This document shows, piece after piece, positions 1 to 40,859 of a stretch of DNA of 64,000 nucleotides. This DNA is from the human T2T-CHM13v2.0 reference genome, Homo sapiens. A program made the position numbers and the translations under genes. Position 1 is the first letter of the stretch, and each line of letters begins with the position of its first letter. The stretch lies in NCBI RefSeq assembly GCF_009914755.1, contig NC_060927.1. One strand, given 5' to 3'. The notes under the pieces were generated by a model. That model saw nothing but the letters and a program-made list of their open reading frames with translations. It had not been told where the DNA came from and did no database searches.

Positions 1-3380
<3,380 letters not shown>

Positions 3381-9058: not shown

Positions 9059-12900
<3,842 letters not shown>

Positions 12901-13207
12901 ACAATGAGATCACATGGACACAGGAAGGGGAATATCACACTCTGGGGACTGTGGTGGGGTGGGGGGAGGGGGGAGGGATAGCATTGGGAGATACACCTAA
13001 TGCTAAATGACGAGTTAGTGGGTGCAGCGCACCAGCATGGCACATGTATACATATGTAACTAACCTGCACAATGTGCACATGTACCCTAAAACTTAAAGT
13101 ATAATAAAAAACAAAATTAATTTTGGCATTCCTGATTGCCTGAATATGATTATCTGCTCTTTGTGTTTTCCTTAAAACTGGTTTTAGGTGTTTTACGAGT
13201 GCCCTCA

Positions 13208-14351: not shown

Positions 14352-15180
14352 TGTGATAACTCTAATATAATGAGAAAAACACATATCTGGACTCTGCCCC
14401 TGGTTCCTGGCACTTAGCTCCTAAACCCTTGGAGTCTCCCAAGTGGTAAGAGTTTTGTATGCTTATGAAATGACTGGCAGCTGGGGGGGTCCCTGGACAT
14501 CTTCAGGCTGAGGCTGGTCACCAGAAAGACCAAAGTCTGAGAAGAGGATTAGCACTTTCAGCCCCACCCTCCAACCTCCGGGAAGAAGAGAGGGGATACA
14601 GGTTGAGCTGATCACCAATGGCCAATGATATAATCAATCATGCCTAGGTAACAAAGCTTCCACCAAAAGGACAGAATTCAGACGGCTTCCAGGTTGGATA
14701 ACACATAGAGAGGGCAGCATGCACGGAAAGGTCATGGAAACTCCATGCCACTCCCCAGTATCTCCTTTATTGCATCTCTTCCATCTGGCTGTCCATCTGT
14801 ATCCCTTGTAATATCCTTTCTAATAAAGGGGTAAACATAAATAAGTGCTTCCCTGAATTCTATGAGCTGCTCTAGCAAATTAATCAAGCCTGAGAAAGTG
14901 ATTATGTGAACCCCCAATTTATCGCTGGTCCGTAAGAACCACAAGTCACAACCTAGAATTTGCGACTGGCATGTGAAGTAAGGGGTAGTCTTATGAGACT
15001 GAGCTTTTAGCCTGTGGGATCTGATGGTATCCAGAATGGAAGTGAATTAGAGGGTACTCACCTGGAATCTGCTGGATAATTGCTGGATGTGTGGGGGAAA
15101 ATCCCTGACATTTGGTGTCTACAGTATCGTTTGAATGGTGTGTGAAAGTCGGAAACAATTTTGCTTTCCTTTCCATTCAG
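14352..15180 (+). mobile_element. MER21-family solo LTR
   Basis: CCTGGCACTTAGCTCCTAAACCCTTGG...GGCTGGTCACCAGAAAGACCAA...GATCACCAATGGCCAATGATATAATCAATCATGCC matches MER21; AATAAA at ~14822. Confidence 0.85.
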
Positions 15181-18383: not shown

Positions 18384-19649
18384 TTGGCTGCAGAAAATAT
18401 GCATGTTTAGAAATGTTTTTATTTTCCAGGATCTGAAGCTTCTATCCAAATGTTAATGGCTATTTGATGTACAGTTTAGAGTTATTGATTCCCTCTTTAA
18501 TTTTCTCATAGTCACAGAAATAAGTAATAATTTGCTTCATATAGAAAATTTGGGAGTAACTTTATCTAATATACTCAGCTATGGTAAATAGAAACTTTTC
18601 AACAGCTCTTCCCAAGAGTTGTTGGGGGTTATAGAATCTTAGTTCAGTCAAGGATGACTTTAGACAAAGGGTTTGTTCTGAGTCTGTCTTTCCACAGAAT
18701 GTACTGAGTGCATCTTTTCTGATAATCTGAGGGGTGCAGATCTAACTCACTGTTTGACTTTCATAGATTCCAAGCTTTATTGCAAAATCCTTTATTCCTA
18801 CTCTGTCATCCGTTTTATTTCTCTATTATATTTCCAGTTCTCTCTTTTTCCAATTATTCCCCAATAGAAATGAGTCATGATTTGGGGGAATTGACATGCT
18901 CTCAGCCATGGAAAAGTAAATAGAAGTAAATCCTGGAATAAATGTTTCTGCTGAGTGGAGTTACATAACTGGCACACATGCGCAGGGACATGGGAAGGAT
19001 TTAGCGGAAGGTTGAGACAGGAGCTTTCACATTTGTTTATATAAAGGGGAGGGGTAGAAAGAACTAATGGACAGAAACAGGTTATGGCAAGGTATCTGTT
19101 TCCTGCCCAGTCATTTGGACTAGGTTTCAGCCCTTTATGCAAAAATAGCTTAAGGCCAGAAGAGCTATTATGATTTCTAAGAGACCCTGGAAAGAAATAT
19201 TGCTGCTAATGAACTGAGGTGACATAGGACAATGCAGAGTTGAAGAGAGGATAATTTCTCCTTGTCTGCACAGAACGCAGCACACCTTCAGCCCTTCAAA
19301 GACGGGCAGCTTTGGCTGCACCCCTGGGCAGTTCCCTGGGTATGCACATTGATGCAATTATAATGTCCTCGCTATGAGATTTCCCACCACCCACGCTGGT
19401 GTTCACATCTAGCGGCATCACAGAGAGGTAGAACTAAAGGGAAGAAGTTGATGGATGCCATCTGGTATTGCAGATGATGACAGGTATGTGAATCTCCACA
19501 ATGCACTGCTGTCAGCCCACAGAAACACCTGAGAAAGCTATGTGGAATTTGCATATGCCGTTGGAAGTAAGGAGAAATTCTGGGTTATTGAGATTAATAT
19601 GATTTCTTTCATGTTTATATGTAGTTTAAGTGTGATGCCTGAATAGCAT

Positions 19650-19955
19650 AATGCCTTGTTTTTTCCTTCTTTCCTTTTAGGTACTATAAGCATGACTGTA
19701 GTACAGATGATGTTTTAGTATTGAAAACAGAGAAATCATTTTACATTCTAAAGTATATTCATTACTTTAAAAATCATAATTGTTAGTTTCTTCATAAGTA
19801 TATATATTTTAATTTAGTTACTGTATGCAGGCTAATTCCATGCATTTTACATATATTAGTTAATTTAATCATCATAAAATCTTGTGAGATTGATGCTATT
19901 GCTATCTCTAGTTTACAGGTAGAGAAACTGAGAGTGCCCAACTAGAAACTGATTA
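19650..19955 (+). repeat. Inverted repeat IR-A, left arm (includes a truncated minus-strand MIR at ~19815-19955)
   Basis: Reverse complement of 20943-21250 with ~14 differences in ~306 bp (hand alignment). Confidence 0.95.
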
Positions 19956-20151
19956 TCTACACTTAACAAAGGTTCAGAGATGGGATTAGTTATTCTAATT
20001 AGGATGTTTCTATGTGAAATTTAGTAGGAGCGTAAACACTTTCCATAAATGTATTTCTCACCAGTTCCAACTTACGTATTTTGTTGCAAAACAAATTAAT
20101 AAAACTTTAGGACTTCTGTTTTTTAAAAGGGCAATTAGAAAAATTTATCAT

Positions 20152-20482
20152 GTCTGGGTGCGGTGGCTCACACCTGTAATCCCAGCACTTTGGGCGGCCA
20201 AGGCGGGCAGATCACCTGAGGTTGGGAGTTCAAGACCAGCCTGACCAACATGGAGAAATCCCGTCTCTACTAAAAATACAAAAAATTAGCCAGGCATGGT
20301 GGTGCATGCCTGTAATCCCACCTACTCGGGAGGCTGAGGTAGGAGAATCACATGAATTGGGAGGCGGAAGTTGTGGTGAGCCAAGATCGTACCATTGCAC
20401 TCCAACCTGGTCAACAAGAGTGAAACTCCATCTCAAAAAAAAAAAAAAAAAAAGAAAGAAAGAAAGAAAGAAAGAAAAGAAA
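20152..20482 (+). mobile_element. AluSp, in the loop of IR-A
   Basis: Diagnostic GGTTGGGAGTTCAAGACCAGCCTGACCAACATGGAGAAA; A/(GAAA)n tail; TSD-like AGAAAAATTT on both sides. Confidence 0.92.
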
Positions 20483-20879
20483 AGAAAAATTTTAAATGTT
20501 GAGTAGCTGCTTAAGAAGCAGGAAATAAAGATGGAGATTTACTATACAGAAAATCCTCTAAGTGGAAGGGTCTTTTCAAGGAAAAAGTATCTCAGAAGAA
20601 AAATTGAGATCCAAAGAAATACACTGTATTAGAGGAACATGACTTCAGATTGACTGTTTTGAAAACTTAAAAAAAAACCTTAATTATTGATAGCATGATA
20701 ATGATCAGGGTCCTTCTGGTGGGGTACCTCTCAACAAAATTAAATTTTTAAAAAAAGTGAATCCAATAGCAATAGTATTAGTGTTTGACAGTGTTTAAAT
20801 GCCAGAAAAAAATAAAAGTGAATTTGTTACATGCTGTTAGAAAGGGCATTATTATGTTTGTAAATCATTGCTGCTGTTA

Positions 20880-21085
20880 GTAAGGTATAATATTAAAGAG
20901 CTCATTTTCTGGAGCTAGATAGCCCACATTTAGATCTTGTCTTAATCAGTTTTTAGTTGGGCACTCTCAGTTTCTCTACCTGCAAACTAGAGATAGCAAT
21001 AGCGTCAATCTCACAAGATTTTATGATGGTTAAATTAACTAATATATGTAAAATGCATGGAATGTAGCCTGCATACAGTAACTAA
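20880..21085 (+). mobile_element. MIR (partly inside IR-A right arm)
   Basis: AAGAGC...CTGGAGCTAGA...CTCAGTTTCTCTACCTGCAAAA...GTAAAATGCATGGAATGTAGCCTGCATACAGTAA. Confidence 0.75.
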
Positions 21086-21250
21086 ATTAAAATATATATA
21101 CTTATGAAGAAATTAACAATTATGATTTTTAAAGTAAATGAATATACTTTAGAATGTAAAATGGTTTCTCTATTTTCAATTCTAAAACATCATCTGTACT
21201 ACAATCATGTTTATAGTACCTAAAAGGAAAGAAGGAAAAAACGAGGCATT
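20943..21250 (-). repeat. Inverted repeat IR-A, right arm
   Basis: Reverse complement of 19650-19955, ~95% identity. Confidence 0.95.
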
Positions 21251-22074
21251 TTTATCAGATATTTTTAAACTCATATACAGTGAAAACACTCATATACAGT
21301 GAAAGGGACATTTCTAAATATTTCTGTCCCAGCAAAGAGGTTTTTGTAGCCAAGGTATTTGCTCATAAGCATCTATAGTTGGATGATGTCACATACTTGC
21401 TCATCTGCCATTACTTGGGAACAGTAGCTTGTGGCAAGCAAGAACCTGAAGCTTTTACATGGCCATGGTTATGAACCAGGAAATAGGGAATTAAATAAAA
21501 TCAGAAAAACGGTTGTTGGATCTAAGTTAGGAATCAGTACAAGACCTCATAGAATGATAGGATGACTCATGGTTCTGTGCCTCCTAGAACAATGTTCAAT
21601 ATGACTAACCTGCCACCAAATTAAATGTTTGCTCCAGGATGGTCAGTAAGACAGGCTTGGATTTTCTAATGGACATTTTAGTAAGCAGGTCTGAGGCAAG
21701 GTAGAGAGATTCAGGAATACTGGGCCATCAGGGATTATAAAGGTTTGAGGGGATAGGAGGGTAGGAATAGAAGAAAGATTCTGTAAATCTTTCTTCTTCA
21801 CATTTGCAAGTCTTTTTACTCTCTATTATGCCTAGGAATGTGTGCTAGTGCCAAGCAAATCAGAGTAAATTCCTCTCTAAAAGAGCCATCCAGTTAATTA
21901 GATTGCAATACATAGATGATATATATCATTTAGCATTCTTAGAGGTTATAAATTAAGACATTACATTCAGTGAAAAACAGCTATATAGTTTACCGATTTT
22001 CTACATGTCTCATAATTTGATGAAAATAAATTAACCCATGATCTGCCTTTATTCTAAAAAAAAAAAAAAACTAA

Positions 22075-22310
22075 AGTTTATTGAGATGGTCACAATACGC
22101 CAACCACTATGCTAAGGAACATGTATGCATTGCTAAGAGATTATTGTGCATATCTATAAAACCAGAGGAAGTATTATTATCCTCGGTGTACAGACAAGGA
22201 AACTTGAAGCTGAGGAAAGAAACATGAATTTCTAAAAATCACACAGTTCATATGTGTGGGCCTGTGAAATCAAACCCAGGTCAACGTGACTTCATCCTGG
22301 GTGTGTAGGC
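22075..22310 (-). mobile_element. MIR
   Basis: TATTATTATCCTCGGTGTACAGACAAGGAAAC...AATCACACAG...AATCAAACCCAGG. Confidence 0.7.
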
Positions 22311-22351
22311 TTCACCATAAAGCTACCCTCAAGTTAAGCCCTGAATTTTTC

Positions 22352-22526
22352 CAGTGTTGCCAACCCTATGTGCAAATTAAAAGCATCTGGACAACTTTTC
22401 TAAATCCTGAGACCAGGCCATACCCAGAACCAATTTAGTAAGATCTTGGGGATAGAATCCAGGCACTCGTAAGTTTAAAAAATTCCCCAGGTGATTCCAA
22501 TGTGCAGCCAAGATTGAGAACATCTG
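22352..22526. mobile_element. MER5-family hAT-Charlie DNA transposon (MITE)
   Basis: CAGTGTTGCCAACC...TCCCCAGGTGATTCCAATGTGCAGCCAAGATTGAGAACATCTG. Confidence 0.8.
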
Positions 22527-22809
22527 TCATATATTCCACTCAAAAAAAATTTCACAACTTTGAATTTTGTCCTTTACATAAAATTGCCACAAAGTATCTG
22601 TGGTTCTCATGTTCTACTATTTTGATAAATGAAAAAATACTTGTATTAAAAATATATTCCAAATACCCTTCTAACCATTCTCAAAACTGAAATACTCCTA
22701 GAAAGACTTAATCTAAATGTTTGTTTGCCACTAGCATTTTTTTCTAAGTTCATTAATTTTTACTTCATGAATTAGAATATTTCAATAGCATGTAAATGTA
22801 CAATTCTCT

Positions 22810-23060
22810 GTAGTGTGATGGTTAAGCATTGGGGATTTGATGCTGGCATGTCTAGGTTTGAATCCTGGCTCTATAATTACATTAGAGCAACTTAAATTCT
22901 TTGTGCTTCAGTTTTATCATGTGTAGAATAAGGTCAACATTAGTACCTAACTTGTAGACCTTAGAATTATGTCATAATTAAGTTACATATAAAGAAGACT
23001 TAGAATAATGCCTGTTACATAGTAAAAACCCAATGAATTTTAGGTATTTCTATTGTTATT
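22810..23060 (+). mobile_element. MIR
   Basis: GTGATGGTTAAGCA...GGTTTGAATCCTGGCTCT...CTTCAGTTTTATCATG...TTAGAATAATGCCTG. Confidence 0.8.
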
Positions 23061-24904
23061 TTGTGTGTAACAGGGGAAAACAAGAGAATGCATTTTCCTC
23101 TGTCACACAGACATCCACTGATGAAATAAGAATCTAATTATGTCTCATATACCTGCCCCAGATTTGAAAGGTCATTTTTTCTCATCAGAATGAGTCATTT
23201 CATTACCCTCTTTTCATTGCTGGAAAACTTGGTGCAGGCTTTTTACTTTTGCCATTGAATATGCACTTAATACTTGGCCTGAATCAATTCTTCTGACTTG
23301 TGATCACTACTATCTATCCATTTTTCTGTCTCAGTGCAGCACTAGAGAAATTCTGCTCTACTCCTCAGTAGACACAGTAGTAATTAAGATAAGTTCAAAG
23401 TCTGCTGTAGCATATGGAGCTAAAGTCTGTTTCCACCTATATCACTATGGGCTGCCTCTCACTTGCATCAGAATTCAGAGACTGACATTAGCAAGCCTCC
23501 TTCCAGCTTGCATGTAAGAGAGACCTCGCTGGGGATACAGTGGTGAGGCTTCAGCTTTCTGCAGTGCACATTCAACATGGCCACAGCTCTCAGCTGACAC
23601 ATAGCATTTATACCATAATCTAGCACGTTTTTCAATTCAGCATTATATGTTTTTTCAATATATGACACTAACACATATTTGACAACTATACTCCCTTTTT
23701 TCTTCTGCCTTTCTTTTTCCCTATAGATCTCAGCTATAGACTTTTTTTGAGTGACAAAGAGTTTTCTCTACTTTGTCTTCTTATCTCTGGGCTACAGTAT
23801 ATTTTGCTTACGCCATTTATTTGCTTCCTTTCACTATTCCTTTCAACACATGCTATTCCATTTTTTCTCTGAGGTGCAGAAAAAATTTAAAAGAGAATGT
23901 AAATTGAGTCTCACATACAAAAATGATTGGTTGGTTTCATTTTGGAAATTGAGAGAAATCATAAAAATTTCAACAAAGAAATAGATAGGGATACTCAGAA
24001 GGCTGGTCAAACTCTAGAGGCTGTCTGCATATTCCTAAACAGAAGTGAATGGATGAACCAGGCAAGTCCAGAGTCAGTGAAGCATGATATCAATAAGGCC
24101 ATTTAACAACAAAATGTGTTAGTTCAGATGGACCTAATTGATGAGGGATATCTGATGGGGCAATCTTTGTACAGAAGGTCAAAACCAAGGTAGCCTGCTC
24201 AGACCTATGGCAGAGGCAGACTGATATCTTCTCAGTGTGGGCCCAGCCAGAAGTTTTTCAAAGTAAGGTGGTAATAAAGCTCCCTGGGAAATCAACCAAT
24301 TGGCATTGAAAAAATTTGTCACACATTATAAATAGAGTACCCAGGAGTAAATTGTGCATACTTGTGAAATACATCAAGCATTAAATGGGGCCTCAGTGCA
24401 GTAACATGTCCTGGTAACCTTAAACACGTCATATAATTATTTCCGAATTCCCCCACACACTGAGTAGCTTGACTATCTTACACATTTAGATAAGATACTA
24501 CCATTTCATTTATTATATATATGAAATGTACCTCCACTGTTATATATGCAAGATCAATGCTTCGAATTTTATAAAACCTACATTTGTGCCCATTCTTTGG
24601 AAGTACACATTTGGTATTATGATAAAAGTATTAAAATATTATTACTCCAATACTCGCAGCCAAAATTTCTGTTGTTAGATATCAGACACTGGCCACCTTG
24701 TACTAAAACATATCCTATCTATGATTTGTACTGCTTAAATAAGACTCAATACTTTTACATTTCATGATAATGATGGATATAATGAAGTATTACACCAGGA
24801 CAGAGCTGAGCTATTACTACCAAGCCTATTATTATTTAGGTCCATGTGAGAACTTGGAAGAAAATTTCAGTAACTCAGTGGTCTTCAAACATTTCAAGTA
24901 GTGT

Positions 24905-25050
24905 GATCTATTTAAAGGAACCACTTAGAACCTCAGTTTCTCAAAATCTCAATAGAATAATAGCAAGCCTCTATTCTTCAAATAATTATAGTGAGGTTAA
25001 AATGATATGGTACAAGTTGTATAAAGATGTACAACTGTGATATTATTATT
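24905..25050 (+). mobile_element. MIR fragment
   Basis: CCTCAGTTTCTCAAAATC...AATAATAGC...GAGGTTAAAATGA. Confidence 0.55.
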
Positions 25051-26822
25051 TCTGGTATTGGTCATACAAACAGCTATTTTATAGTATGATAAATGAGGTT
25101 TTCACAGCTTCATCAGAAACTCTTTTAAGTCATAATTATATAAATATAACCATTGTATGATTTTGTGAAACTATTCTTTTTAATGTAGTTCTTTACCTGG
25201 TAGATATCAATTTGTCAATTGCTTTCTCACACGATATATTCAGAAATTAAAGATGTATGGTTTCTCCAATCCCAGTATGAGCTGAGATTCTAACAGTTTC
25301 CTACTAAGAGGGCATGTTTCTCCATGGAAGCTTGATCTTAGCAAATAGGACTTTGTTATTTCAAACTCTTTATTTGAAGGTATTATTACATTCAACGTAC
25401 CAATGAAGGAACTGAAAGAAAAAAGCATCAAATTCCCTGTTTCTGGTTCAGCTGCTCTCCACAGCTCCACAGGATTTCTCACATCCATGGCTCATTTCTC
25501 CTTTGGTTTTTAGAACTTGCAATTACATTATTTAAGGTTATCAGTTCTGCCAACCAAAATCCTTTGTTTGTTGTAGGATAAATAGATAAGTAGTCTTTAA
25601 TTAACAGAGGCTAATAAAACAATGTCACCTTATTGTCAGCGGTCTAAAATCTTCAGAAGGCTCTCTCCAGAGACGCATAATCCGTGTTTTCTTACTTCTT
25701 GACATTGTGTTTCTCTCCATATGCAAACCAGGAAGTGTGGAGTGAAGGATGCCGTGACACGCTTTGGTCCCTAACAGTGTAAGCGGCATGAGGCAAGTTA
25801 TCTTCTGTGTCACTGACTTCACCACATGAAAACCAGGTCACTGTCTCATTGCCCTCCCATGGATAACTTAAGGAAGAAGCCCTCAAAAGGATTCTAAAGT
25901 TATTGCAAATACAAGGTGTTTTCTTAATTCTCCCTGATAGTCATACCAGGTAAATATGAAAGTTTGCCAATGAAAAGTGGTTTCACTTCAATAAATTCTC
26001 TGATTAGTTAAACTATAGAAGGAAAAACACAGGGATTTCAGACTTTCACTAACTGATTTTAATTTTGTTCATTCCTTCCTTCCTTCATTTACATGGACAG
26101 CAGCTGCAACACAGTGATTTTATTTTTACTTCTCGTACCATGGCATTTTATTATTACCTGTCTCTGCATAGCTTTTTATGTTTCACCATTTTCCCTTCAT
26201 CCCCCATCTCAAGTACTATTCCTCTTCCCTCATGAAACCCACCTTGATGTATTTAATATATGTCCTCAAAGCTATCTGGCATAAATTAGTTTACCCGTAT
26301 GTATGTCTCTGATACTTATGTAGCTTTCAGTTTATAATTTATATAAAATAATTATTCTGCTTGTTTTCCTCAATCTATGCTTTGGAAATCTATTTATTCT
26401 GTAACATGTAGATCTATTTCATGTCCTATAACCACTGCACAGAATTACAATTATATCATAGGCACATTCCACATTTTGTTGCCTATCATCTTGATGAACG
26501 TGGTGATTTCGGGAGAGCTCACCTATGATTAAAACACGACAGTTACACTGTATCTGTTCTCCTTCCCATTGGAAACTAGGAATTGAGCAGCAGTTGACGA
26601 GTGCTAAGATAGAGAAACTATTTCTTTTTACCAGAGGAAGAAAAAGGAAGGGAAGTATCATTTATTAGGGCCAATTCTACTGAAATGGAGATAGGGAAAA
26701 ATATCATCTCCCAGGATTAATTACAGTGAAGCTACTCCTCTCTACCTATGCAACTATGTGAGTCTTGCCTGGCCTTGCTCTCTTAGCCTACCCGAGCAAG
26801 TCAGGCCAAGAAGCTAACTTTT

Positions 26823-28813
26823 TGTTTTCATTAACTTTTATTTTAAGTTCCTGGGTACATGTGCATGATGTGCAGGTTTGTTACATAGGTAAACATGTGC
26901 CATGGTGGTTTGCTGCAGAGATCAACTTACCACTCGGGTATTAAGCCCAGGACCCATTAGCTGTTGTTCCTGATGCTCTCACTTCCCTGCCTGACAGGCC
27001 CCAGTGTGTGTTGTTCCCCCATGTGACCATATAGTCTCATCGTTCAGTTCCCACTTATAGGTGAGAACATGTGATATTTGTTTTTCTGTTCCCGCGTTAC
27101 TTCGCTGAGGATAACAGCTTCCAGTTCCATCCATGTCCCTGCAAAAGGACAAGATCTTGTTCCTTTTATGGCTGCATAGTATTCCATGTGTGTGTGCATA
27201 CCACATTTTCTTTATCCAGTCTACTGTTGATAGGCACTTGGGTTGATTCCATGTCTTTGCTGTTGTGAACAGTGCTGCAACAAAAATGTGCATGCATATA
27301 TTTTTATAATAGAATAATTTATATTCCTTTGGGCATATACCCAGTGATGGGATTGCTGGATCAAATGGTATTTCTGCCTCTAGATCTTTGAGGAATCGCC
27401 ACACTGTCTTCCACAATAGTTGAACTAATTTACACTCCCACCAACAGTGTAGAAGTGTTCCTTTATCTCCTCAACCTCACCAGCATCTATTGCTTATTGA
27501 CTTTATAATCATCATCATTCTGACTGGTTTGAGATGGTATCTCAATGTGGTTGTGATTTGCACTTCTCTAATGAAAGAAATAAAGATATTCAAATAGGAA
27601 GAGAGGAAATCAAATTATGTTTGTTTGCAGATGATATAATCCTATATCTAGAAAACCCCATCGTCTCAGCCCAAAAGTTTCTTAAGCTAAGAAGCAACTT
27701 CAGCAAAGTCTCAGGATACAAAATCAAAGTGCAAAAAATGCTGACATTCTTATATGCCAACAACAGGCAGGCAGAGAGCTAAATCATGAATGAACTCCCA
27801 TTCACAATTGCTACAAAGAGAATAAAATACCTAGGAATACAGCTAACAAGGGAAGTGAAGGACCTCTTCAAGGAGAACTGCAAACCTCTGCTCAGGGAAA
27901 TCAGAAAGAACACAAACAAATGGAAAATCATTCCATGCTCATGGGTAGGAAGAATCAATGTCATGAAAATGTCCATATTGCCTAAAGTAATTTAAAGATT
28001 AAAGGCTATTTCCATTAAACTACTATTGACATTCATCACAGCATTAGAAAAATATATTTTTAAATTCATGGGGAACCAAAAAAGAGCCTGTATAGTCAAG
28101 ATAATCCCAAGCCAAAATAAAATAGCTGGAGGCATCACACTACCTATTTCAAACTATATTCCAAGCCTAGCATAACCAAAACAGCATGGCACTGGCACAA
28201 AAACAGACACATGGACCAATGGATCAGAATAGAGAACTCATAAATAAGACCACACAACTACAACCATTTGATCTTCGATAAATTTGACAAAAACAAGCAA
28301 TGGGGAAAGGATTTCCTATTTAATAAATGATGCTGGGAGAACAGGGTAGCCATATGCAGAAAACTGAAACTGGACCGCTTCCTTACACCTTATAAAAAAA
28401 TGAACTCAGGATGGATTAAAGCCTTAAATGTAAAACCCAAAACTATAAAAACCCTCGAAGAAAATCTATGAAATATCATTCAGGATATAGGCATGAGCAA
28501 AGATTTCATGATGAAAACACCAAAAGTAATTGCAGCTAAGCAAAAATTAGCAAATGGTACGTAATTAAACTAAGAGCTCCTGCATGGCAAAAAAAAAAAA
28601 AAAAAAAAAAAACTATCATCAATGTGAACAGACAACCTACAAAATGGGAGGAAATTTTTCAATCTATCCATATGACAAAGGTCTAATATCCACAGTCAAC
28701 AAGGAACTTAAACAAATTTACAAGAATAAAACCAACAACCCCATTAAAAAGTGAGCAAAGGACATGAACAGACACTTCTCAAAAGATTATATTCATGCAG
28801 CCAACAAACATAT
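26823..28813 (-). mobile_element. 5'-truncated, 5'-inverted (twin-primed) older L1PA (about PA10-13)
   Basis: 26823-~27572 is 3'UTR and ORF2 end on the minus strand; ~27573-28813 is upstream ORF2 on the plus strand. Degenerate TSD GAA(G/T)CTAAC(T/A)TTT at 26810-26822 and 28814-28826. Confidence 0.92.
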
Positions 28814-28888
28814 GAATCTAACATTTAAAAGGACTGAAACTTTATTGACTTTATTCACTGAATAATTCTTAACCCTCTTTATTTTCCA

Positions 28889-28975
28889 TTTTCAAATTTG
28901 TTTGATATTCCATACTCCATATTGCTGACCTTGGCTTCAGCAATATGGAGTATGAAATATAAAACAGTTTGAAAA
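28889..28975. repeat. Short inverted repeat/hairpin: 18-bp perfect stem, 8-nt loop, extends imperfectly to ~40 bp
   Basis: CATACTCCATATTGCTGA (28911-28928) pairs with TCAGCAATATGGAGTATG (28937-28954). Confidence 0.95.
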
Positions 28976-30099
28976 ATATATATATTTTTCAGCTATATAC
29001 AGCTTCACACATGCACTTGGAGTTTGACTTTTGAGAACACTCGGTCAGGGCTCATATAATCTTTTATCTATGATTTGCATTTACCTGTTAGATCATTGGC
29101 TTTAAGCTGTTCTGGGGAGCAACAAAGATGTCTCCAATTAAGGCTTAAGGGTTGCCCCAAGTAATCAATATTTAGCTTTAATTTGCATCCTTAAAAGGAA
29201 CAAAAAATATATATAAATTGAACAAAATTGATAGCAATTCACTTTCAAGGTTTGGGGAATATGAATGGTAAAATGCCATTCCCCTAGCAAAGAAAATCAA
29301 TGGATAGTACATTACTTTCCAAATATCTGATTAGCTTACTTTAATATGACTAGCATAAATCCACAAGAGAGTTACTGTAATATCGTATATTTCATCTTCA
29401 GTGCCCATATTAGGCTATTTGATTAATTGTCCTACATTTTCAGTAATCCTTAAAAATTTTCCCAAAATGAACTCCTTTCATTCTGGTATTTTCAACATAG
29501 ATTTTTCTTCCCTGGGTTTTTCAATAATGAGACTCTGTGTGAAAGTAGATATAGCTTTCAGGAGCACAAAGAATATTACATAAAAGGACATTTTAATACT
29601 TGTAAATGAGTTGTAGATGCAAACTTCTCTCATGATCCACAGGAAACATTCTAGTTACTATATCACATATGCAGATCCTGTTTTGAATATGAAGAACATG
29701 GAGATAACCTAGCACAGCATGATTGGATTGTCAACTTAATGTTTTTATTCATTATTCCCAGCAATTTCAAATCAGATTATAACATGTGTAAACTACAATT
29801 ATTATAATGCAGTTTTTATGAATAGATGCTATGCAATTTAATATGGTCATTAATTATCAAAACAATCATTTTTATAAAATACAATTATGCAATAGGAAAG
29901 ATGCGTATTTTAAAGTACACACATGCAATATGCAGAAGGAAGAAATGAAATAAAGAAAATATAAAAAAAACAAAAGGACATAGGAAAACAACTTTAAATG
30001 GCTATTGATATTCACCCATCAGTAGTTACTGACAAAAAAAATCTTATATTAAAATAACTAATAAGCTTAATTTATATGCTGGCTTAATATACAGACAAC

Positions 30100-30359
30100 A
30101 TATATATATATGTAAATCCACATTGTTTACATGTATATGATATATGTATATGTTTGTATGGTGTGCGTGTGTGTATACCCATAGATATTCACATATGCAA
30201 TCCAAATATATCTCCAGATGTATATATATCCATGCATATCTCTCCATATATATCCATCTCTCTATATTATATATAATATATATATAATAATATATATATA
30301 TCTGCCTGCTTTGAGCTGCTTTGAAGGCTCGCACTCTCTTTCTCTCTCTCCATAGATAG
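30100..30359. repeat. TA/TATC-rich low-complexity tract
   Basis: Seen directly. Confidence 0.8.
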
Positions 30360-31014
30360 ATGGATATTTCAACGCAGATCACAATGGTGTAGGCACTCGA
30401 TCTTCCAGATGTTTTAGAGGTGAGCCCACTGGAATTATATTAGTTTCGAGTTTTCTTTGATTATTTTAGTAGCATTTTGAGAGGGCCTAAGATAGAGTCC
30501 TTACTTTCCAATTCTTCTTGGTTGTAAAACTGAAAAATTGACTCAAAAAGTCAAATGGAGCAAATTATAATATTGGATTTATCGCTGGTAACATTGGATT
30601 GTAGAGATTGGGTGGACTTGAAGTCAAAACAGGGCCTTCTCTTTTAGGACCACAAGCCCATAGAGTAGGGTGGACACACCCCTTCACTGAGTATCAGAAG
30701 GGAAGACAAGACAGAGAAGAGGCCTTGATGGGCTGCAGAAGGGAGGTGCATTTTGTCTGTTCCTGGCATGGTGACTACAAGAGCAAGTTCCACTATGCTT
30801 GAGTTCTGGGAAGCCATAAGTAAGATAAAAGGCTATGTACTATCAGCATTGTTTCTGTAGAACTCACTGGTAACATAAGCCAATCATTATTCACTCCCTT
30901 GGGGAGGAACAAGTATTAGGATGAAGATAAAACTGGTCACTCCTTCCTCAGAATGTAGAATTATTGGCAAAAGTTTCCTTTTCGGGACCTCAGTAGCAAT
31001 GCAACAGCATCATC
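30360..31014 (+). repeat. Inverted repeat IR-B, left arm
   Basis: Reverse complement of 31946-32603, including a 36-bp perfect match TGAAGTCAAAACAGGGCCTTCTCTTTTAGGACCACA. Confidence 0.95.
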
Positions 31015-31945
31015 ATGCCAACAGTAGTTTGTGGAATCCATTCATCTTCCTACCAGACTCTAGGGGTGATATCATCAAGATTCCCAGAATATAGAGGCAG
31101 AAATATAAAAAGTGATATGGAATCGAAACATAGGTCATTTTCTCAGCTTAGGATCAGAAACTGTATTATTTAATGGTTGTCTTCTATTTTCTTAGTGGAT
31201 TTTATCTTGGGCTACTTCATGGTAGCTGATGCCTGTATCCCACCCCTGACATGGACACATACATTTTTACAGTTCTTATGTGATTCGATATAGATTGGTT
31301 TCTCACCTAAATAGAAAAAAGAATTATAAAACTTCCTAATGGTGGTGAAGGAAGCAACTTCCTTGGTAAGTACAAATGTATCAGAAGTGCTTGATTCAAA
31401 ATGTAAACCTTTCCTGTTCAGGGAGTAACAGGCTATAAAAGGATTGGCAGGACTCAGGACTTACTGGTTGGCAAACCTATTACAATTAACTGTTTCCTGA
31501 AAGTGTCATTCAGCCTTGTAGAATAGATGCCTCTGTTGGGGCTGTGTTCTCTTGTCTGTCATGAACAGACATAGAGAAAAATAGCCTCAGTATCTCAGTC
31601 TTATATTGTTGAGAATAATCTTATTGTATAAGAATATTGAAGCAGGAGTGCTGTAAAGGATTTTAATATTTTGACTATAATACAAAACTGTCTTTTACAT
31701 TTATACACATGTATTTAATAAAGGCAATGGTTTCAAACTGATTTTTATGTTGCTACTATTGTATTGTCTGTGATATTTATGCTGTTGTGGGTCATCTATA
31801 CAGTCTCTAGTGAGCTGCTTTGGAGAGTGTGGCTGAGCATAATTTGATGAGAAAAATAGAAGAACAGAGGATTTTTTATTCAGATTCTATGTGAAAATAG
31901 GTTAAAAGAACATAGCACATAACATTAGAGATAGAGGAGGACTCG

Positions 31946-32603
31946 GATCATCTTACTACATTCCCATTGTGGTCTCCAAAAAGGAAACTGCTGCCAATAA
32001 TTCCAGATGCTGAGGAAGTGTCCACATTTTTCTTTATCCTATTAATTGCTCCTTCCCAAGAAAGTGAGTAATAATTGGCTCATGTTACCAATGAGTTCTG
32101 TGGAAGCAATGCTAATTGCACATAGCCTCTCTCTTACTTGTGGCTTCCCAGAACCCAAGCATAGTGGAATTTGCTCTTGTAGTCACCGCACCAGAGGCAG
32201 AAAAAATGCACCTCCCTTCTGCGGCCCATCAAGGCCTCTTCTCTGTCTCACCTTCCCGTCTGATACTCAGTGAAGAGGTGGGTCCACCCCACACTATGGG
32301 CCTGTGGTCCTAAAAGAGAAGGCCCTGTTTTGACTTCAGGTCCATCCCACTCTCTACAATCTAATGTTACCAGTGATAAACCTATATTATAGTTTTCCCC
32401 ATTTGACTTTTTGGGTCACTTTTTCAATTTGTTAGAGCCAAGAAGGATGGGAAAGGGAAGAATCCATCTTAGATCCTCTTCCACAAAATACTACTGAAAT
32501 TAACTAAATGAAACTAAAAAATAATTTACTTCCAATGGGCTCACCAGTAAAATATTTGGAAGCTCAAATGCCTGTACAAATATGATCTCATTGAAAGATC
32601 CAT
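31946..32603 (-). repeat. Inverted repeat IR-B, right arm
   Basis: Reverse complement of 30360-31014; core ~90% identical, ends ~65-80% (hand estimate). Confidence 0.95.
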
Positions 32604-32732
32604 ACATATAAATATATAGATATATATTTGTATAGATATAGATATGGATGATGTAGAAGATATATATATGGATTATATAGATGATATATACATATAGTCA
32701 CATAGATATAGATAGATATAGATGTGGATATA
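32604..32732. repeat. GATA/TA-rich low-complexity tract
   Basis: Seen directly; compositionally the mirror of 30180-30359. Confidence 0.8.
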
Positions 32733-33429
32733 GGTAGTCCTTCAGGAAAAAGATGGCATTTTTTACCCAGCCTTGGATAAATACCCCAACCCTCTCTGCA
32801 GATGACGTCTAATTGCCAGAAAAGTATTTCCTTTGTTCCACCGACCACGCTATGAACATTGACTGTGGCTAAAGTTATTTTGTGGTTTTATATGAAGGTA
32901 CTGAGTCAAAAGTCCTCTAGCACTCTTGTTGGTTTGAAGATGAACAGACTTTTTAGTTCATCTAGAACTAAACTAGATTAACATCTAGACTTTTTAGTTC
33001 ATTTAAAAACCTGTATCCTTTGTCTCATCTGCAAAAAAAAAAGTATTAACAAATGCCTTACCAAAGAAGAATTATAGCAAAGCTTTAGTAAATTGAAAAG
33101 AATTAAATCCTTACGTAAAATTCAAAAGGTTATGCAATTGGTATTTTATTTATTTTCATTAACAACAAATGAGGGCTTAAAATAAATACCCGATTCTTTA
33201 CCCCAGCTGTCCATGATTTTATCAATCATTGAGAAATGACAGTGCAACTTAATAAACTTATCTAGAAAAGTAAATATTATTAAAATGTTATATTTTTATA
33301 AAAATTGTAGTGCCATCTGCAAATGTTTTAACCCTATTACTGAATAAATTACCTAATATGTGTTCACCTCAGCACACAGAAAGTTTGTGTAGTTTTCACA
33401 GATAAAAGAGTTTACATCCTACAACTGGA

Positions 33430-33568
33430 TAGTCTTGGTTCAAATCCCTTGTTAATTGTGTGTCCTCCATTGAGTAACCATATGTAACTTAGTTTAATCA
33501 TCTATAAAATAATGCCTACCTCATAGGGTTGTTTGAAGGATTAAATGTGACAAGCATATATTGATCAT
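33430..33568 (+). mobile_element. MIR fragment interrupted by MST
   Basis: GGTTCAAATCCC...CATCTATAAAATAATGCCTACCTCATAGGGTTGTTTGAAGGATTAAATG. Confidence 0.7.
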
Positions 33569-33950
33569 TGATATGGTTTGGCTCTGTGCCCCTACCCAAA
33601 TCTCATGTTGAATTTTAATCCCCAATCATGGGGGAAGAACTTGGTGGGAGGAGATTTGATCATGGGGGCAGACTTTCCCCTTGCTGTTCTCTTGACAGTA
33701 AGTGACTCCTCACAAGATCTGGTTGTTTAAAAGTGTGTGGCACTTCCCCATTAGCTGTCTCTCTTTTGTCACCATGTGAAGATATGCTTGCTTCCCCTTC
33801 ACTGTCCATCATGATTTTATGTTTCCTGAGGCCTCCCCAGCCATGCCTCCTGTACAGCCTGCAGAACTGTCAGTCAATTAAACCTCTTTTCTTTATAAAT
33901 TCCCTAGTCTCCAATAGTTATTTATAGCAATGTGTGAATGGACTAACACA
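33569..33950 (+). mobile_element. MSTA-like solo LTR (MaLR)
   Basis: TGATATGGTTTGGCTCTGTG...AATTAAACCTCTTTTCTTTATAAAT...GGACTAACACA; TSD-like ATCAT/ATAAT. Confidence 0.9.
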
Positions 33951-35029
33951 ATAATTTAATGCAGTACATGGCACAGAAGACACAGCTCTTATTTTTATAA
34001 AAAAGTGTTTGTTTTGTTATTAATATTGCTTTTTTATTCATTCCAAACTGTTACGAATATGCTTAAAAATTTTAATGTGTTCGTAATTTTGCAGTCCTCC
34101 TTGAACATTTCTTTCAAATCTAAGCTCAAATCATAATCACTCAATTAAAAATGTAATAGTTCAAAAATTGCAGACAAAATGGAAAAAGGAAACAAAATCA
34201 GCTAACCAATTATTCTCTTGCTCTTTATGTCACCATGTAACCTAAGTGACACTTTTTTTTCATCAACTTGTCATTTTTAAGTTTACATGACTAAATTGTA
34301 TAGTTCTTTTGGCAGCTTATGGGCCAAACTTAGATACTGCTGTGAGTGTCCAAATCACAAATCTATATAAAGGTCCACTTGTGTCTTTAACCACATGCAG
34401 TAGATTTATAATCCCTTCAATGCAAAATAAGCGCTTCTGAAAGTCCTAGAAGATCCAAGCATCTGTCTGTTCTAAAAATGATCACATTAGTGTGCTGATG
34501 AATAGTAAGGGACTTAAGCCAACTTAGAAATATTGTATGGCAGAGACAGAAAAAAACAGAGAGAAAGAAAGAGACCAACCTTATTGAGCCCCAAAACTCT
34601 TTCTTCCTCCCCCTCTTCTTAAGAAGAATGTTTACTGTTTTATCACAATTCACTGAGGATATACCTATTTCAATGTGTAGATTTTCCTAACGTAATTCTA
34701 CCCAATGAGATAATATATATTGTCACCAAGATCTACAACACTATTTCAGTTTCCAAATTTATTCTTAGAAAGCTAAAACTAGCTTTAAAAGGTACCTCAT
34801 TACCATTTGCAAGGTTCAAATCCTGGAAATATAAAATGACGAGTGAGTTTATGAAACTTTTATTTTGGAATTCAGATGAAGTGATAAATGACTACAGTAA
34901 GGCCATACTTAAAATACACTACACCTTCAGGTTCAACTAAAGAAAAACTTACTGAAATATAAAAATAGGACTAAACTAATAGAATTTTTTAACCAAATCT
35001 GATACATACTATACAATAATGTTGTTTTT

Positions 35030-35412
35030 ACCTGCTAATCTGCTAAGGCTGCCATGAAATATTACCACAGACTAGGTGGCTTAAACAATAGAAATGTATT
35101 TTCTTACATTCTGGGAGATGGAAGTCCAAGATCAAGTTGTTAGAGGGTTTGGTTTCTCCTGTGTCCTCTCTCTTTGGTTTGCAGATGACAACTTTCTTGC
35201 TATGATTTCACATGGCATAACTCTGCCCTTGCACACTCGTGATGTCTCGTCCTCTTCTTTTAAGGACAAAAGTCTTATTGGAATAATGCTCCACCATTAG
35301 GAAATACCACATTTAACTTTAATTACCACTTGAAAAGCCCTAGCTCCAATTATAGTCGCATTGGGGTCCAGGGCTTCTATCTTGGGGAGGACACAATTCA
35401 GTCCAAAACAAC
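35030..35412 (-). mobile_element. MLT1A-like solo LTR
   Basis: GGCTGCCATGAAATATTACCACAGACTAGGTGGCTTAAACAATAGAAAT...GGACACAATTCAGTCCA. Confidence 0.85.
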
Positions 35413-36479
35413 ACCTTTTATCAGAGTAAAATGCCTAAGCAGATATATTATCAATAACCTCATTTTATTTTATCCCAATTTTCAACCTTTAGAATATCAG
35501 TGTTGATTTATACAAGTAATAATTCAGTAAAAATCATAAATTCAAGATGTGTTAATTACAAATATAGTTAAGAATGAAGATGTCAAAGCAGAAAATGAAA
35601 GTTCTAATTAATCAAGTATTCTTTATCAGGTTATACGACTCAAGGAGTTAATAAAATCTTAAAAACTTATGTATTAAAAGTTACAAGATATAAACATAAA
35701 ATATATGATTAGTATTCTGGTAGTAGATATATCAAGGAAGATGAAAATAATTGACATAAACTAATGTATAGAAATGGCATAATCTATATTCATAACCTCT
35801 CAAAAATAAGTATTGCATGTGTATGTAAAAATGCTTTTCAAAGCATTGATGAAAGGGTATGAAATGGCTTCATAAGAACTGATTAAATCTGTATAACTTA
35901 ACTCTTAAAGTTAATAATATTCAATCTAATTTAAACTCTTTACTAAATGTGTAGTAGATTTTTTGCCCTTATGAGTTATTTTCCAATGAATGATATCCAA
36001 AATACAACCAACAAGTTGCAGTTTGTGACTCCTACAGATAAGCACACAAAAAAATAAACAAATAAAATATAAACAATATTTGACAACACTATAAACAATA
36101 AAATCATTTGGAGTTCAAAGACAAAATAAAACACCATGGACTAGAATTGTCAATAACAGTGTTTTAAAATGGTTAGATTTTCGAAGGTTACTGAGGGATG
36201 GATTGGAGTATTTATAACACTTTTACAAAAGAGATGAACATAGTAGAAATGAGACTGGTGGCATAATAAAAACAGTTATCTAGTTTTTATTTTATTTTAT
36301 TTTATTATCCCCCTTATAAGGAGACTAATTATTAGACTAGTGTAATTGGATCAATGTTTCAGAAAGTAAAATAATCAGGACCTTGAATACCTCATTTCAG
36401 AAGTCAAATTTTATCCTGAAGAAATGAATACATTGAAAATTTTAGTAGAAAAATATCCACAATGAACACTTCCTTGAGG

Positions 36480-37000
36480 ATTATATATTCATTCCCTCTT
36501 TTTCTAATATCAATAGCCAAATTTTCCTAGGAAAACTACTATTCCTGCACTCTTAGACCACTGGTCCAAAGTAAATGTGGGGTTCATTTAATCTTCCAGG
36601 CTCCTGGTATAGGCATCAGTACCAATTAACGCATTGCAACTCCTTGGCCTACAATGAACTCTGGAGGCAGACAAGGCCGGTATGAAAGAGTGCAGTGAAA
36701 TTAATAGAGAATCTCATTCTGCTAGGTTTTCTCAGCTATGAAGAGGAAAACTAACAGATTCCTGAGTCAGCAACACAACCTGCTTGAGAATGAGGACAAC
36801 ACAGAACAGAGCATAACTGAGACATGGGAAAAATAGCTTTCAGGTAACAGATTTTTGAGCACCTTGATACATCTGAGCCTGAATACAATTTTGCCACGGA
36901 GATGTTGAGTTATATCAACCAATAAATTCTCTTTTGGGTTTTATGGCAGTTTTCAGAATGTTTTCTGATTCTTGCAACCAAAAGAGTTCTTATTAACTCA
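36480..37000 (+). mobile_element. Old MLT1 (J/K-like) LTR
   Basis: 3' end CCAATAAATTCTC...CTTGCAACCAAAAGAGTTCTTATTAACTCA. Confidence 0.6.
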
Positions 37001-38160: not shown

Positions 38161-38439
38161 TTCAATCCTTGCTCTGGAAAACCAAATAGATTTATTTACT
38201 TGCAAAACCTCTGAGTGAGAAAGGTGAGCTAAATTAAAAGGTAATTGTGTCTTTAAGGACACTATCCCTTCATCAGGCATAGTTGAAAGGTATTTACTAA
38301 ATTAAGTTTTTCTCATTGCCTTCCACAGTACCCAATGCCAGAAGCTTCATAAAAGTATACAAAGGTATGAATTGAAGTGGGCTCTGGAAACTTTTTAAAG
38401 TAAATTTAGCTCCCCTTAGGGGTCAAAAAAATCTAAATT

Positions 38440-38780
38440 TTAACATATATAATATATATATCTACATGTATGTATAGATTCAGATACATACATGTAAAGA
38501 TACATATTATGTATGTAAAAATATCTGTATATATATACATGTGTGACTATACAGATACATATTATGTATACATACATATACATCATATGCATACATAGAT
38601 ATGTATATGTAAGTACATACACATATTATGTATACATACACATATTTTTGTATATGTAAATATATACATTTTTGAATCATATACATATATGCATATGCAC
38701 ACATGTACCACACATGCATGTATGCATATACATATGTGTATGTATACATTCATACATACACATAATATGTATGTATATAT
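38440..38780. repeat. (TATACA)n-like alternating purine-pyrimidine low complexity
   Basis: Seen directly. Confidence 0.9.
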
Positions 38781-40859
38781 GGATCAAAAAAAGAATAGCG
38801 ATTTGTTCTAGAACAAGAAATAGAAAATGAAAAACCTCAAATAAGGAAGTTCATCCAAAAATGGATATTCTTTGTACCACGAGAATTTTGAATGACTGAG
38901 TAAAGGTGCCATGAAATCTTATGTCATTGCTGAGGAATAAAGTTAGTATTTTGTTCATTCATTTTGTTTCATTTTTAACATTTGCTTTGGTTTCTGTTTT
39001 GCCCATGGCAACTAAGGCAATAAGTTGGGGATGCCAGGGACAAGATAGTGAAAAGAGAGTGCTCCCTAGTCCAATCCCATGCATTTAGTTTTGAGCAGTT
39101 GAGAGATACCAGTCTTTTAAAAGAAGCTGAAAAAGTGGTATCATTTGGGATTTTAAAAGACAAAGATTAAGGAGCAAACAGAGCTGCTCTTGACCAAGTC
39201 AGCCACATAATTAAGAAGAGTGTTTTCCTTTCAGTTTCTGTGAGGAACATAACTTGGTTTGAACAAAGTGATTATATAAGAAAATGCACTTCTATATGTG
39301 AGTTCAAAGTTTTGTGCTTTAGGAGTTTCCAAAAAGCTGAAACCCACAAAAAAAAAATGGGGGGAGAATTCTTACAAGGAAAAGATGCTCCCATGGCAGG
39401 GATGAGTCATATCTCCCACCAAAAATAGTTTCTGGGAAGCAGAAAAGGAGGTCAGAGTGAAAGAATAAGGAGGACCCTACTTGATCACACTTTAGACATG
39501 GTAGAGACTCCCAGGAATAATTAATCAGTCCTCGAGTGAAGACCCTACAAGGATGCAGTTGGGGACTACATAGCAGTAAAATGTGGATATTAGTGGCATG
39601 GCCCAAAGCCAGTGAATCTCAGAAAAATGTCTATTTTTTAATAGCCATTAGTTAACAAATCACAGTAAAATGTATAGTTACGCTTTGCATAGGAAAAGAA
39701 GTATTAATGGAATCAGATATCTTACACAAAGATTTGAACAAATGATAAACAACTAGAATGTACTGGAAAGATTTATTTTGGTAACTATATATATGAACAA
39801 ACATAAGCATATTATTTATCTATCGTAGGTAACTGAAAAGTACAATCCATCCGTGCTTGTTTAAATTTAGTCTTCAGTAGATAGAAAGTTTACTTTCCTG
39901 ACAACTCTGCATTTAGAAAAAGTTTGGCTTCATTGAAAACTGCTGACACTCTCTCAACCACCAACAATATATCTTCTGTAGAGAGTTATACCACAGACAT
40001 ACATATAAATGTAAGCAAAAATAAAATGCCAACTCAGACATGCCTTGAGTTTTTTAGTATTTTTCTGATGTATTTCAATGTATTCATCTTCAGAGTAAAT
40101 TTTCTTTCCATATTTTAACCTTCACAGTTAAAGTCGAACTTCCAAAAATATTGGACTTATGAAACAATTCGCTCTAAGTGTGAATCATTTCTTGAAAAAT
40201 TTTGATTAAACAGGAAATAAATTTTTAGGATTAAAACAGAACTCCTCTGCACATTTGACTCCCACTTTCTCCCCAAGGCAACAGTCAACTTAAGACCTTT
40301 TCTCTGTGTCAAGTCCAGCTAGAAATACAGATAGAGAAATCAGTAAGTAGCCAGGAGCTGTTTGAGCTTCAAAACTATTCTACATGCACTGTGAAACTGC
40401 CCATTCAACAAGCTAGATAGAGTCATTAAGGGAAAGGACTGTGGCATATTCTTATGCCCCCTTCAGTGTTAGAACACCAGCCTCTAATTTCCTTCCCTAG
40501 TTATGTGCAAATTTCAGATATTCAGGATATCTTGTTTCTAGTTAATAGAAAAATTTTGTTAATTAGACATAATCTAAGTTAAAAGCATTTAAATAACTCT
40601 TAAGTAATAAAAATATAGCTGACATTTTATCTTTACTTTTTACCAGATCTATAAAAAAGAAGAGGAAACATACATGGTTTAAGGTAGGAGAAACAAGCTA
40701 AAGAGGAAAAACAAAAATGACCATAGGAAGCCAGGCCAGAGTAAGAAGAGTCTGTTGTTTTTAACAGAGTTTCTCTATATTCCAGAAATGTGTATAGTAC
40801 CCATATATCCCTTGCAAGATTGTTTTGGAGAAATTGTTCCAACTAAATAAATAAAAAAT

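What the first reader, a model, noticed from the sequence alone, without database searches (positions are those of the whole stretch)
19650..21250. Second inverted repeat: ~305-bp arms at ~95% identity around a ~990-bp loop
Seen: the arms differ at ~14 positions and contain unique sequence plus the same diverged MIR piece, so this is a local inverted duplication rather than two MIR insertions. The MIR continues into the loop beside the right arm but is cut at 19955 on the left. By hand count 7 of 11 substitutions give G:U pairs in a plus-strand transcript (small numbers). Each arm begins with a strong acceptor-like TTTTTTCCTTCTTTCCTTTTAG, on + at 19680 and on - at ~21221. Inference: near-perfect 300-bp dsRNA stem and a candidate ~1-kb polymorphic or recurrent inversion.
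Basis: partly seen in the sequence, partly recalled or inferred. Interest (0 to 1): 0.7.

Follow-up and report, generated by a model that had tools for sequence, protein, structure and literature searches.

The report
Old local inverted duplication, chromosome 3
A 306-base stretch of human chromosome 3 occurs twice, facing itself across a 1-kb gap; it likely arose from one DNA-copying slip in an ape ancestor, the inversion catalogues checked do not list the gap as flipping, and it is likely an ordinary example of a common kind of small duplication.

Summary
The repeat is real: arms 19650-19955 and 20943-21250, 95.8% identical (11 substitutions, two 1-bp gaps), around a 987-bp loop with an Alu. 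The arms occur nowhere else in CHM13. A MIR profile built from other genomic copies crosses the right arm's inner edge into the loop and stops at the left arm's, so this is a local inverted duplication. It fits the known 'Inverted Dup' class (<1 kb copied within 5 kb; PMC4617611). Arm divergence of 3.6% (CI 1.8-6.5%) suggests an ape-era origin, or a reset by conversion; a weak ~50-bp outer fringe (p 0.007-0.03) keeps that open. The inversion idea found no support: no row here in two human inversion tables, a human-chimp table or a 1,972-row human-macaque table (non-CHM13 coordinates estimated from recall). In one study, 6 of 319 uncalled inverted pairs proved polymorphic. The G:U excess is chance-level (7 of 10, p=0.34). 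The two acceptor motifs are one motif copied, and the listed RefSeq exons do not use it. A ~300-bp stem is predicted if the predicted lncRNA intron is transcribed; expression and editing were untestable. Verdict: likely fixed and neutral, new member of a known kind, interest low.

The parts
19650..19955 (-). Left arm, 306 bp; inferred to be the newer, inverted copy
   Evidence: its MIR piece is cut at the inner edge
20943..21250 (+). Right arm, 308 bp; inferred donor, continuous with the loop
   Evidence: the MIR profile runs across 20942|20943
19956..20942 (.). Loop, 987 bp; its non-Alu part 20480-20942 is single-copy
20152..20489 (+). Alu with A-rich tail (subfamily not tested); possible 15-bp target-site duplication 20137-20151 / 20483-20497, 12 of 15 alike, read by eye
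20896..21081 (+). MIR-like element: 5' part in the loop, remainder in the right arm
   Evidence: 76.7 bits, E 1.5e-23
19818..19954 (-). Copied MIR piece in the left arm, lacking the 5' part
   Evidence: 60.6 bits; alignment 19934-19818, envelope to 19954
19597..19649 (-). Outer fringe, left: weak gapped similarity (about two thirds of columns) to the reverse complement of 21251-21295
   Evidence: p 0.007-0.011 (+1/-1), 0.03 (HOXD70), absent under +2/-3
21251..21295 (+). Outer fringe, right; overlaps a 17-bp tandem duplication at 21269-21304
19659..19680 (+). Acceptor-like pyrimidine tract plus AG, 197 nt after the annotated donor at 19484; not among the listed RefSeq exons
   Evidence: hub gene table
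21220..21241 (-). The same acceptor-like motif in the other arm

Best explanation
Two 96%-identical copies of one single-copy 306-bp stretch face each other across a 987-bp loop; they likely arose once, by a replication template switch in an ape-era ancestor that copied the right arm backwards into the left position, and the structure is likely fixed and neutral today. Inferred steps: (1) the nascent strand left its template near 19649 and annealed to the opposite strand about 1.6 kb ahead, perhaps helped by the weak 50-bp similarity of the two outer fringes; (2) it copied about 306 nt in reverse, starting in unique DNA and ending inside a MIR; (3) it returned to the original template at 19956, leaving the loop in its old orientation; (4) the arms then drifted apart at a neutral rate. 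Side effects, predicted and untested: a ~300-bp intronic RNA stem that ADAR would edit if the lncRNA is transcribed, and very rare loop flips by arm-to-arm recombination.
For: Shown: arms unique in the genome apart from MIR-like hits. The MIR is continuous from loop into right arm and cut on the left, so 19955|19956 is a new junction. Differences are spread evenly (KS p=0.73) and are 10 transitions to 1 transversion, as expected of real neutral change from a single reset. Size and spacing match the 'Inverted Dup' class: <1 kb inserted within 5 kb, 54% of 229 validated sites (PMC4617611 passages); median 284 bp, 277 events (PMC12350158 passages). Loop orientation: no human-macaque inversion row between hg38 145,693,280 and 146,730,117, in a table that lists many ~1-kb events; none in the human-chimp list; 0 of 11 chr3 rows in the CHM13-based table of 44 samples; none among 612 candidates. 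Base rate: 6 of 319 inverted pairs without an earlier call were polymorphic in 54 people. Age: 3.6% (CI 1.8-6.5%); 1.5% per arm against 3.4% non-CpG divergence of the loop Alu (p=0.07).
Against: No primate or pangenome sequence could be aligned, so donor arm, age and fixation are indirect. hg38, hg19 and hg17 positions were estimated from recalled PLOD2 coordinates. No significant junction microhomology was found; the best is a 5-bp match one base off the diagonal, and it favours the inversion-plus-duplication rival. The outer fringe (p 0.007-0.03 under two of three scorings) may mean that the repeat is much older and was homogenised later. All 4 substitutions polarisable with the MIR profile look derived on the right arm (read; p=0.125 by hand), slightly odd for an even clock. 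Catalogues under-call ~1-kb inversions inside repeats, and the inversion list of the 1,019-genome study was not in the held supplement.
Confidence: 0.62

Rival explanations
1. Old repeat, reset later: the inverted repeat is far older than 3.6% implies, and one long arm-to-arm gene conversion (or template-switch 'perfecting') homogenised 306 bp, leaving the outer ~50 bp diverged.
For: Outer fringe similarity on the same diagonal, p 0.007-0.011 (+1/-1) and 0.03 (HOXD70) against composition-matched genomic and shuffled nulls. The neighbouring inverted repeat 30360-32603 has such a profile, with a ~90% core and ~75-80% edges (permutation p=0.023). Conversion of near-perfect into perfect inverted repeats by template switching is described (PMC5453318 passages), for much shorter lengths.
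Against: The fringe vanishes under +2/-3 scoring, is AT-rich and overlaps a tandem duplication. There is no fringe at the inner edge (score 0), and identity is uniform up to both edges.
Confidence: 0.2
2. Inversion with duplication: the left arm is the original, and one event inverted arm plus loop while leaving the old arm behind, so the loop is reversed relative to the ancestor.
For: It also predicts MIR continuity at the right arm. A 5-bp match between the left arm's inner end and the reverse complement of the right flank lies one base off the junction diagonal. This event type (inverted repeat with inverted spacer) exists at small scale.
Against: No human-macaque inversion row here among 1,972. 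The 5-bp match is within chance given the several junction pairs examined.
Confidence: 0.08
3. One reading: the loop is a polymorphic or recurrent ~1-kb inversion in living humans, flipped by recombination between the arms.
For: Validated inversions have inverted repeats as short as 140 bp; most recombination-mediated inversions recur, and a higher repeat-to-inversion length ratio goes with higher frequency (PMC6748972 passages). The ratio here is about 0.3. Of 37 polymorphic inversions missed by one large study, 56.8% were rare and/or small.
Against: Absent from a CHM13 table of 44 samples whose 11 chr3 rows include five of 0.3-1.2 kb, and from 612 candidates merged from five studies of 195 people. 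Base rate is 6 of 319. The longest perfect run between the arms is 48 bp (from the differences), short for homologous exchange (recalled).
Confidence: 0.06
4. Not a duplication: two independent MIR or other transposon copies, the terminal repeats of a DNA transposon, or an assembly artefact.
For: The arms contain MIR sequence, and inverted pairs of repeats are common: 85 inverted self-matches of 150 bp or more in 71 held loci, 84 of them Alu-based.
Against: About 170 bp of each arm is non-MIR single-copy DNA. Other MIR copies match at 74-78% against 96% for the partner, and 0 of the 85 background matches reach 93%. An assembly echo would not carry 13 differences with a 10:1 transition bias.
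Confidence: 0.02

Closest known systems
'Inverted Dup' structural variants (Sudmant et al. 2015, PMC4617611; Schloissnig et al. 2025, PMC12350158)
   Same: A stretch <1 kb duplicated in reverse within 5 kb of the other copy, not retrotransposition-linked; 306 bp against a median of 284 bp.
   Different: Those are young polymorphic events; this one has 3.6% arm divergence and is likely fixed (not tested).
Inversions mediated by inverted repeats, InvFEST type (Giner-Delgado et al. 2019, PMC6748972; Moreira-Pinhal et al. 2026, PMC13629690)
   Same: Same anatomy: >90%-identical inverted arms within the size range of validated cases (140 bp upward) around a short unique loop.
   Different: No evidence of two orientations; not among the 612 candidates.
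Long near-perfect inverted duplicated sequences in pre-mRNA (Barak et al. 2020, PMC7006430)
   Same: >300 bp, both arms in one predicted intron, predicted stable duplex.
   Different: 95.8% is just under their 96% cut; the host is a predicted XR model; only 20 of their 197 human cases had both arms expressed above FPKM 0.01.
Four-point template-switch events (Loytynoja and Goldman 2017, PMC5453318)
   Same: Switch-and-return copying creates an inverted repeat with the spacer kept or inverted.
   Different: Their events span tens of bases; this one copies ~306 bp from ~1.6 kb away, at FoSTeS/MMBIR scale.

Membership tests
Local inverted duplication ('Inverted Dup') | Duplicated stretch <1 kb, reverse orientation, within 5 kb of the other copy | tested here: met
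   306/308 bp, 987 bp apart; definition
Local inverted duplication ('Inverted Dup') | Not two independent transposon insertions | tested here: met
   Arms single-copy genome-wide; MIR cut at one junction
Local inverted duplication ('Inverted Dup') | A one-copy ancestral allele exists, with the spacer in the same orientation | tested here: inconclusive
   Indirect only: no human-macaque inversion row; no primate sequence available
Local inverted duplication ('Inverted Dup') | Replication-error junctions (microhomology or templated inserts) | tested here: inconclusive
   Only 5-9-bp matches within chance; weak outer fringe
Repeat-mediated polymorphic or recurrent inversion | Inverted repeats >90% identical at both breakpoints | tested here: met
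   95.8%; criterion
Repeat-mediated polymorphic or recurrent inversion | Both orientations seen in humans | tested here: inconclusive
   No row in two catalogues; no direct genotyping; one catalogue searched with estimated coordinates
Repeat-mediated polymorphic or recurrent inversion | Orientation differs among primates | tested here: inconclusive
   No row in the human-chimp or human-macaque tables; coordinates estimated
Long near-perfect pre-mRNA dsRNA (Barak set) | >300 bp and >96% identity | tested here: not met
   308 columns at 95.78%, a near miss; not in their Table S8
Long near-perfect pre-mRNA dsRNA (Barak set) | Both arms transcribed on one RNA and edited | not testable with these tools
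   A predicted intron spans both arms (hub table); fold predicts 302 of 306 left-arm bases paired; no RNA data
DNA transposon with terminal inverted repeats | Multi-copy element in the genome | tested here: not met
   Arm, non-Alu loop and both flanks are single-copy in own-genome searches

The most novel reading that the evidence does not exclude
One lncRNA intron holds two single-copy inverted repeats 10 kb apart, each around a ~1-kb loop, both old and kept alike by arm-to-arm conversion. The 96% pair forms an uncatalogued, heavily edited non-Alu RNA stem that hides a strong splice acceptor 197 nt from the first donor, and its loop flips at low frequency in humans or apes.
Probability: 0.07. 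Interest if true: 0.5.

Novelty: new member of a known kind. Interest (0 to 1): 0.17.

Why it matters
As it stands it matters little: small local inverted duplications were the commonest inversion-type class in two population surveys, and this is one likely fixed example in an intron of an uncharacterised predicted lncRNA (0 papers name LOC107986138). It would matter more if primate alignments showed old arms reset by conversion, since the two neighbouring repeats would then give a datable test of arm-to-arm conversion in sub-kilobase repeats. It would also matter if nuclear RNA showed a strongly edited non-Alu stem, as few long near-perfect stems are expressed (20 of 197).

Tried and rejected
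G:U bias as a sign of selected RNA structure: rejected, 7 of 10 transitions, p=0.34; 29 of 65 in the neighbouring repeat, p=0.46. Patchy conversion inside the arms: no sign (KS p=0.73). Inner-edge homology: none. Ancient repeats spanning the outer junctions, to decide which arm is original: none found in own-genome searches (1 match of 1 each, self) or by sensitive BLAST of six junction-side stretches against the window plus 71 loci (only short weak hits). AT and GC skew to orient the loop: uninformative. Cassette exon from the 19680 acceptor: no donor with 7 or more of 9 consensus matches in 19681-20150, and no branch-point-like motif in the 60 nt upstream on + (consensus motifs recalled). 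Structured RNA family: 3 Rfam hits, all on the Alu and below gathering score. A first attempt to collect MIR copies drew Alus instead. The background for how often such repeats occur is small and biased: 71 loci, 222 kb, picked around Alus and MIRs; it gives no genome-wide rate. The supplement of PMC12350158 holds no inversion table by its index, so the blank for that paper says nothing. The blank in Barak Table S8 was expected and is uninformative. Two papers sought (a 2022 inversion paper, a 2017 breakpoint paper) were not held. Text searches for the gene id, six coordinate strings and 'small inverted duplications' gave 0 papers; main text only, so unseen supplements (editing atlases, ape inversion tables) may list the locus.

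Full report
1. Observation. Self-BLAST of the window gives an inverted match of 19650-19955 to 21250-20943, 308 columns, 95.78%, E 1e-138 (pieces also). Global alignment shows 13 differences: 11 substitutions (10 transitions, 1 transversion) and two 1-bp gaps; the loop is 987 bp. This is CHM13 chr3:148,695,650-148,697,250. The left arm has 5 matches of 5 candidates in the genome: itself, the right arm (96%) and three MIR-like pieces at 74-78%. The non-Alu loop and both flanks match only themselves; that search skips very common words. In 71 held loci (222 kb, biased to Alu and MIR sites) there were 85 inverted self-matches of 150 bp or more, 84 Alu-based, and 0 at 93% or above. The feature is real and beyond chance. 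The transition bias argues against an assembly echo.

2. Anatomy. A MIR profile built from 66 copies in other loci aligns to 20896-21081 (+), across the inner edge of the right arm, and to 19934-19818 (-) in the left arm. The loop piece next to the right arm scores 7.8 bits alone; the best of 500 shuffles is -0.6; the piece next to the left arm gives no hit. So 19955|19956 is a new junction and right arm plus loop are continuous. About 170 bp of each arm is non-MIR. The loop holds an Alu from 20152; 'AluSp' was not tested and agrees only with recalled diagnostics. Differences are evenly spread (KS p=0.73). Outside the arms, 19597-19649 resembles the reverse complement of 21251-21295 with gaps: p=0.007 and 0.011 with +1/-1 scoring, 0.028 and 0.032 with HOXD70, and no extension with +2/-3; the inner edge shows none. 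Junction microhomology is not significant: a 5-bp match of the left arm's inner end to the reversed right flank, one base off the diagonal, and 8-9-bp matches at chance level.

3. Age. Arm divergence is 11 of 305 sites, 3.6%, Poisson interval 1.8-6.5%. Against recalled species distances (human-orangutan about 3%, human-macaque about 6.5%) this is roughly 10-30 million years, if no conversion occurred. The loop Alu differs at 8 of 232 non-CpG sites (3.4%) from the majority line of its 11 fetched nearest copies, against 1.5% per arm; the arms look younger, p=0.07 one-sided. Choosing nearest copies biases the Alu figure low. All 4 substitutions polarisable with the MIR profile look derived on the right arm (read; p=0.125 by hand).

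4. Is the loop an inversion? No direct genotyping was possible. Catalogues: (a) PMC10150506 Table S1, CHM13 coordinates, 44 samples: 0 of 11 chr3 rows lie here, the nearest at 134.7 and 165.6 Mb, and five rows are 0.3-1.2 kb, so the size is within reach (supplement rows only). (b) PMC13629690: 612 candidates, merged among others from five studies of 195 people and screened for inverted repeats >90% (passages); no number starting 14593-14595 in its supplements. There, 6 of 319 inverted pairs without an earlier call were polymorphic in 54 people. (c) PMC1270012, 1,576 human-chimp inversions from 23 bp (abstract): no hit at prefixes 14713-14715 on chr3. (d) PMC11092980 Table S7, 1,972 human-macaque inversions from 51 bp (passages): no prefix 14592-14596; in rows 69-98 of 117 the neighbours are 145,693,004 and 146,730,117. 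For (b)-(d) the position (hg38 about 145.94 Mb, hg17 about 147.14 Mb) was estimated from recalled PLOD2 coordinates. The supplement of PMC12350158 has no inversion table by its index, so its blank is uninformative. PMC7605249 was read in passages only and its tables were not searched. I put human polymorphism at about 6%.

5. RNA. Both arms lie in intron 1 (19484-36725) of the predicted model XR_007073230.1 (hub table). Folding 19650-21250 pairs 302 of 306 left-arm bases with the right arm, longest stack 80 bp, duplex -468.7 kcal/mol on + and -453.5 on - (junction region). This follows from the duplication and is no evidence of function. G:U on +: 7 of 10 transitions, p=0.34. PMC7006430 (passages) counts 197 human intragenic repeats >300 bp and >96%, of which 20 have both arms expressed above FPKM 0.01; this one narrowly misses the cut and is not in Table S8. 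The acceptor-like tract is strong (2 of 1,999 plus-strand YAG sites have 19 of 20 pyrimidines) but has no good donor within 470 nt and is not among the listed exons. Rfam finds only the Alu. No held paper names LOC107986138 or six coordinate strings; these searches cover main text only.

6. Mechanism. Best (0.62): a single switch-and-return replication error copied the right arm backwards to the left site and left the loop unflipped; neutral decay followed. Shown: uniqueness, MIR polarity, even divergence. Inferred: donor arm, mechanism, age, fixation. Rivals: an old repeat reset by conversion (0.20; the fringe, and the core-edge gradient of the neighbouring repeat, p=0.023); inversion with duplication (0.08); living polymorphism (0.06); transposon pair or artefact (0.02). 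An edited stem is compatible with any of the first four.

7. Comparison. It works like, and on tested features belongs to, the 'Inverted Dup' class: 54% of 229 validated inversion sites, nearly all <1 kb within 5 kb of the other copy (PMC4617611 passages); 277 events of median 284 bp in 1,019 genomes (PMC12350158 passages). Template switching that creates inverted repeats with or without spacer inversion is described at small scale (PMC5453318 passages). About 628,000 inverted pairs of 200 bp or more at 80% or more exist in CHM13, at a median distance of about 31 Mb (PMC11794170 passages); that count is not a rate for close single-copy pairs. It has the anatomy of a repeat-mediated inversion but is not shown to be one.

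8. Verdict. Observation confirmed; interpretation partly supported; new member of a known kind; interest 0.17. Most novel open reading: two old conversion-maintained repeats in one intron, with an edited stem and rare flips (probability 0.07, interest 0.5).

Noticed in passing
window 30360-31001 / 31959-32603: A second single-copy inverted repeat in the same predicted intron: ~640-bp arms at 82%, ~960-bp loop, TA-rich sequence on both sides, no other copy in the genome. Identity is ~90% in the core and ~75-80% at the edges (permutation p=0.023), which suggests partial conversion. The catalogue searches also covered it and found no row.
   Followed up: partly
window 1-3369 and 9753-13120: Direct repeat at 96.5%. 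The 39 other listed genomic matches to 300-1300 are 97% identical, so these are two independent copies of a high-copy family (L1-like; name recalled), not a local duplication.
   Followed up: yes
window 21269-21304: A perfect 17-bp tandem duplication with 19-bp period, 18 bases outside the right arm and within the weak outer fringe.
   Followed up: partly
window 19626-19633 and 19959-19966: An 8-bp perfect inverted match brackets the left arm; if the arm is an insert, the empty site held a small hairpin. Within chance for AT-rich DNA.
   Followed up: partly
window 19869, 19894, 19915, 19945: All four arm substitutions inside the MIR part match the MIR profile on the left arm, so they look derived on the right arm (p=0.125).
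   Followed up: partly
window 38437-38784 and 28889-28975: Low-identity self-inverted stretches in the self-BLAST; probably simple-repeat palindromes.
   Followed up: no
L019 194-400 / 1615-1813: The one non-Alu inverted match (207 bp, 73%) among 85 in the background loci.
   Followed up: no
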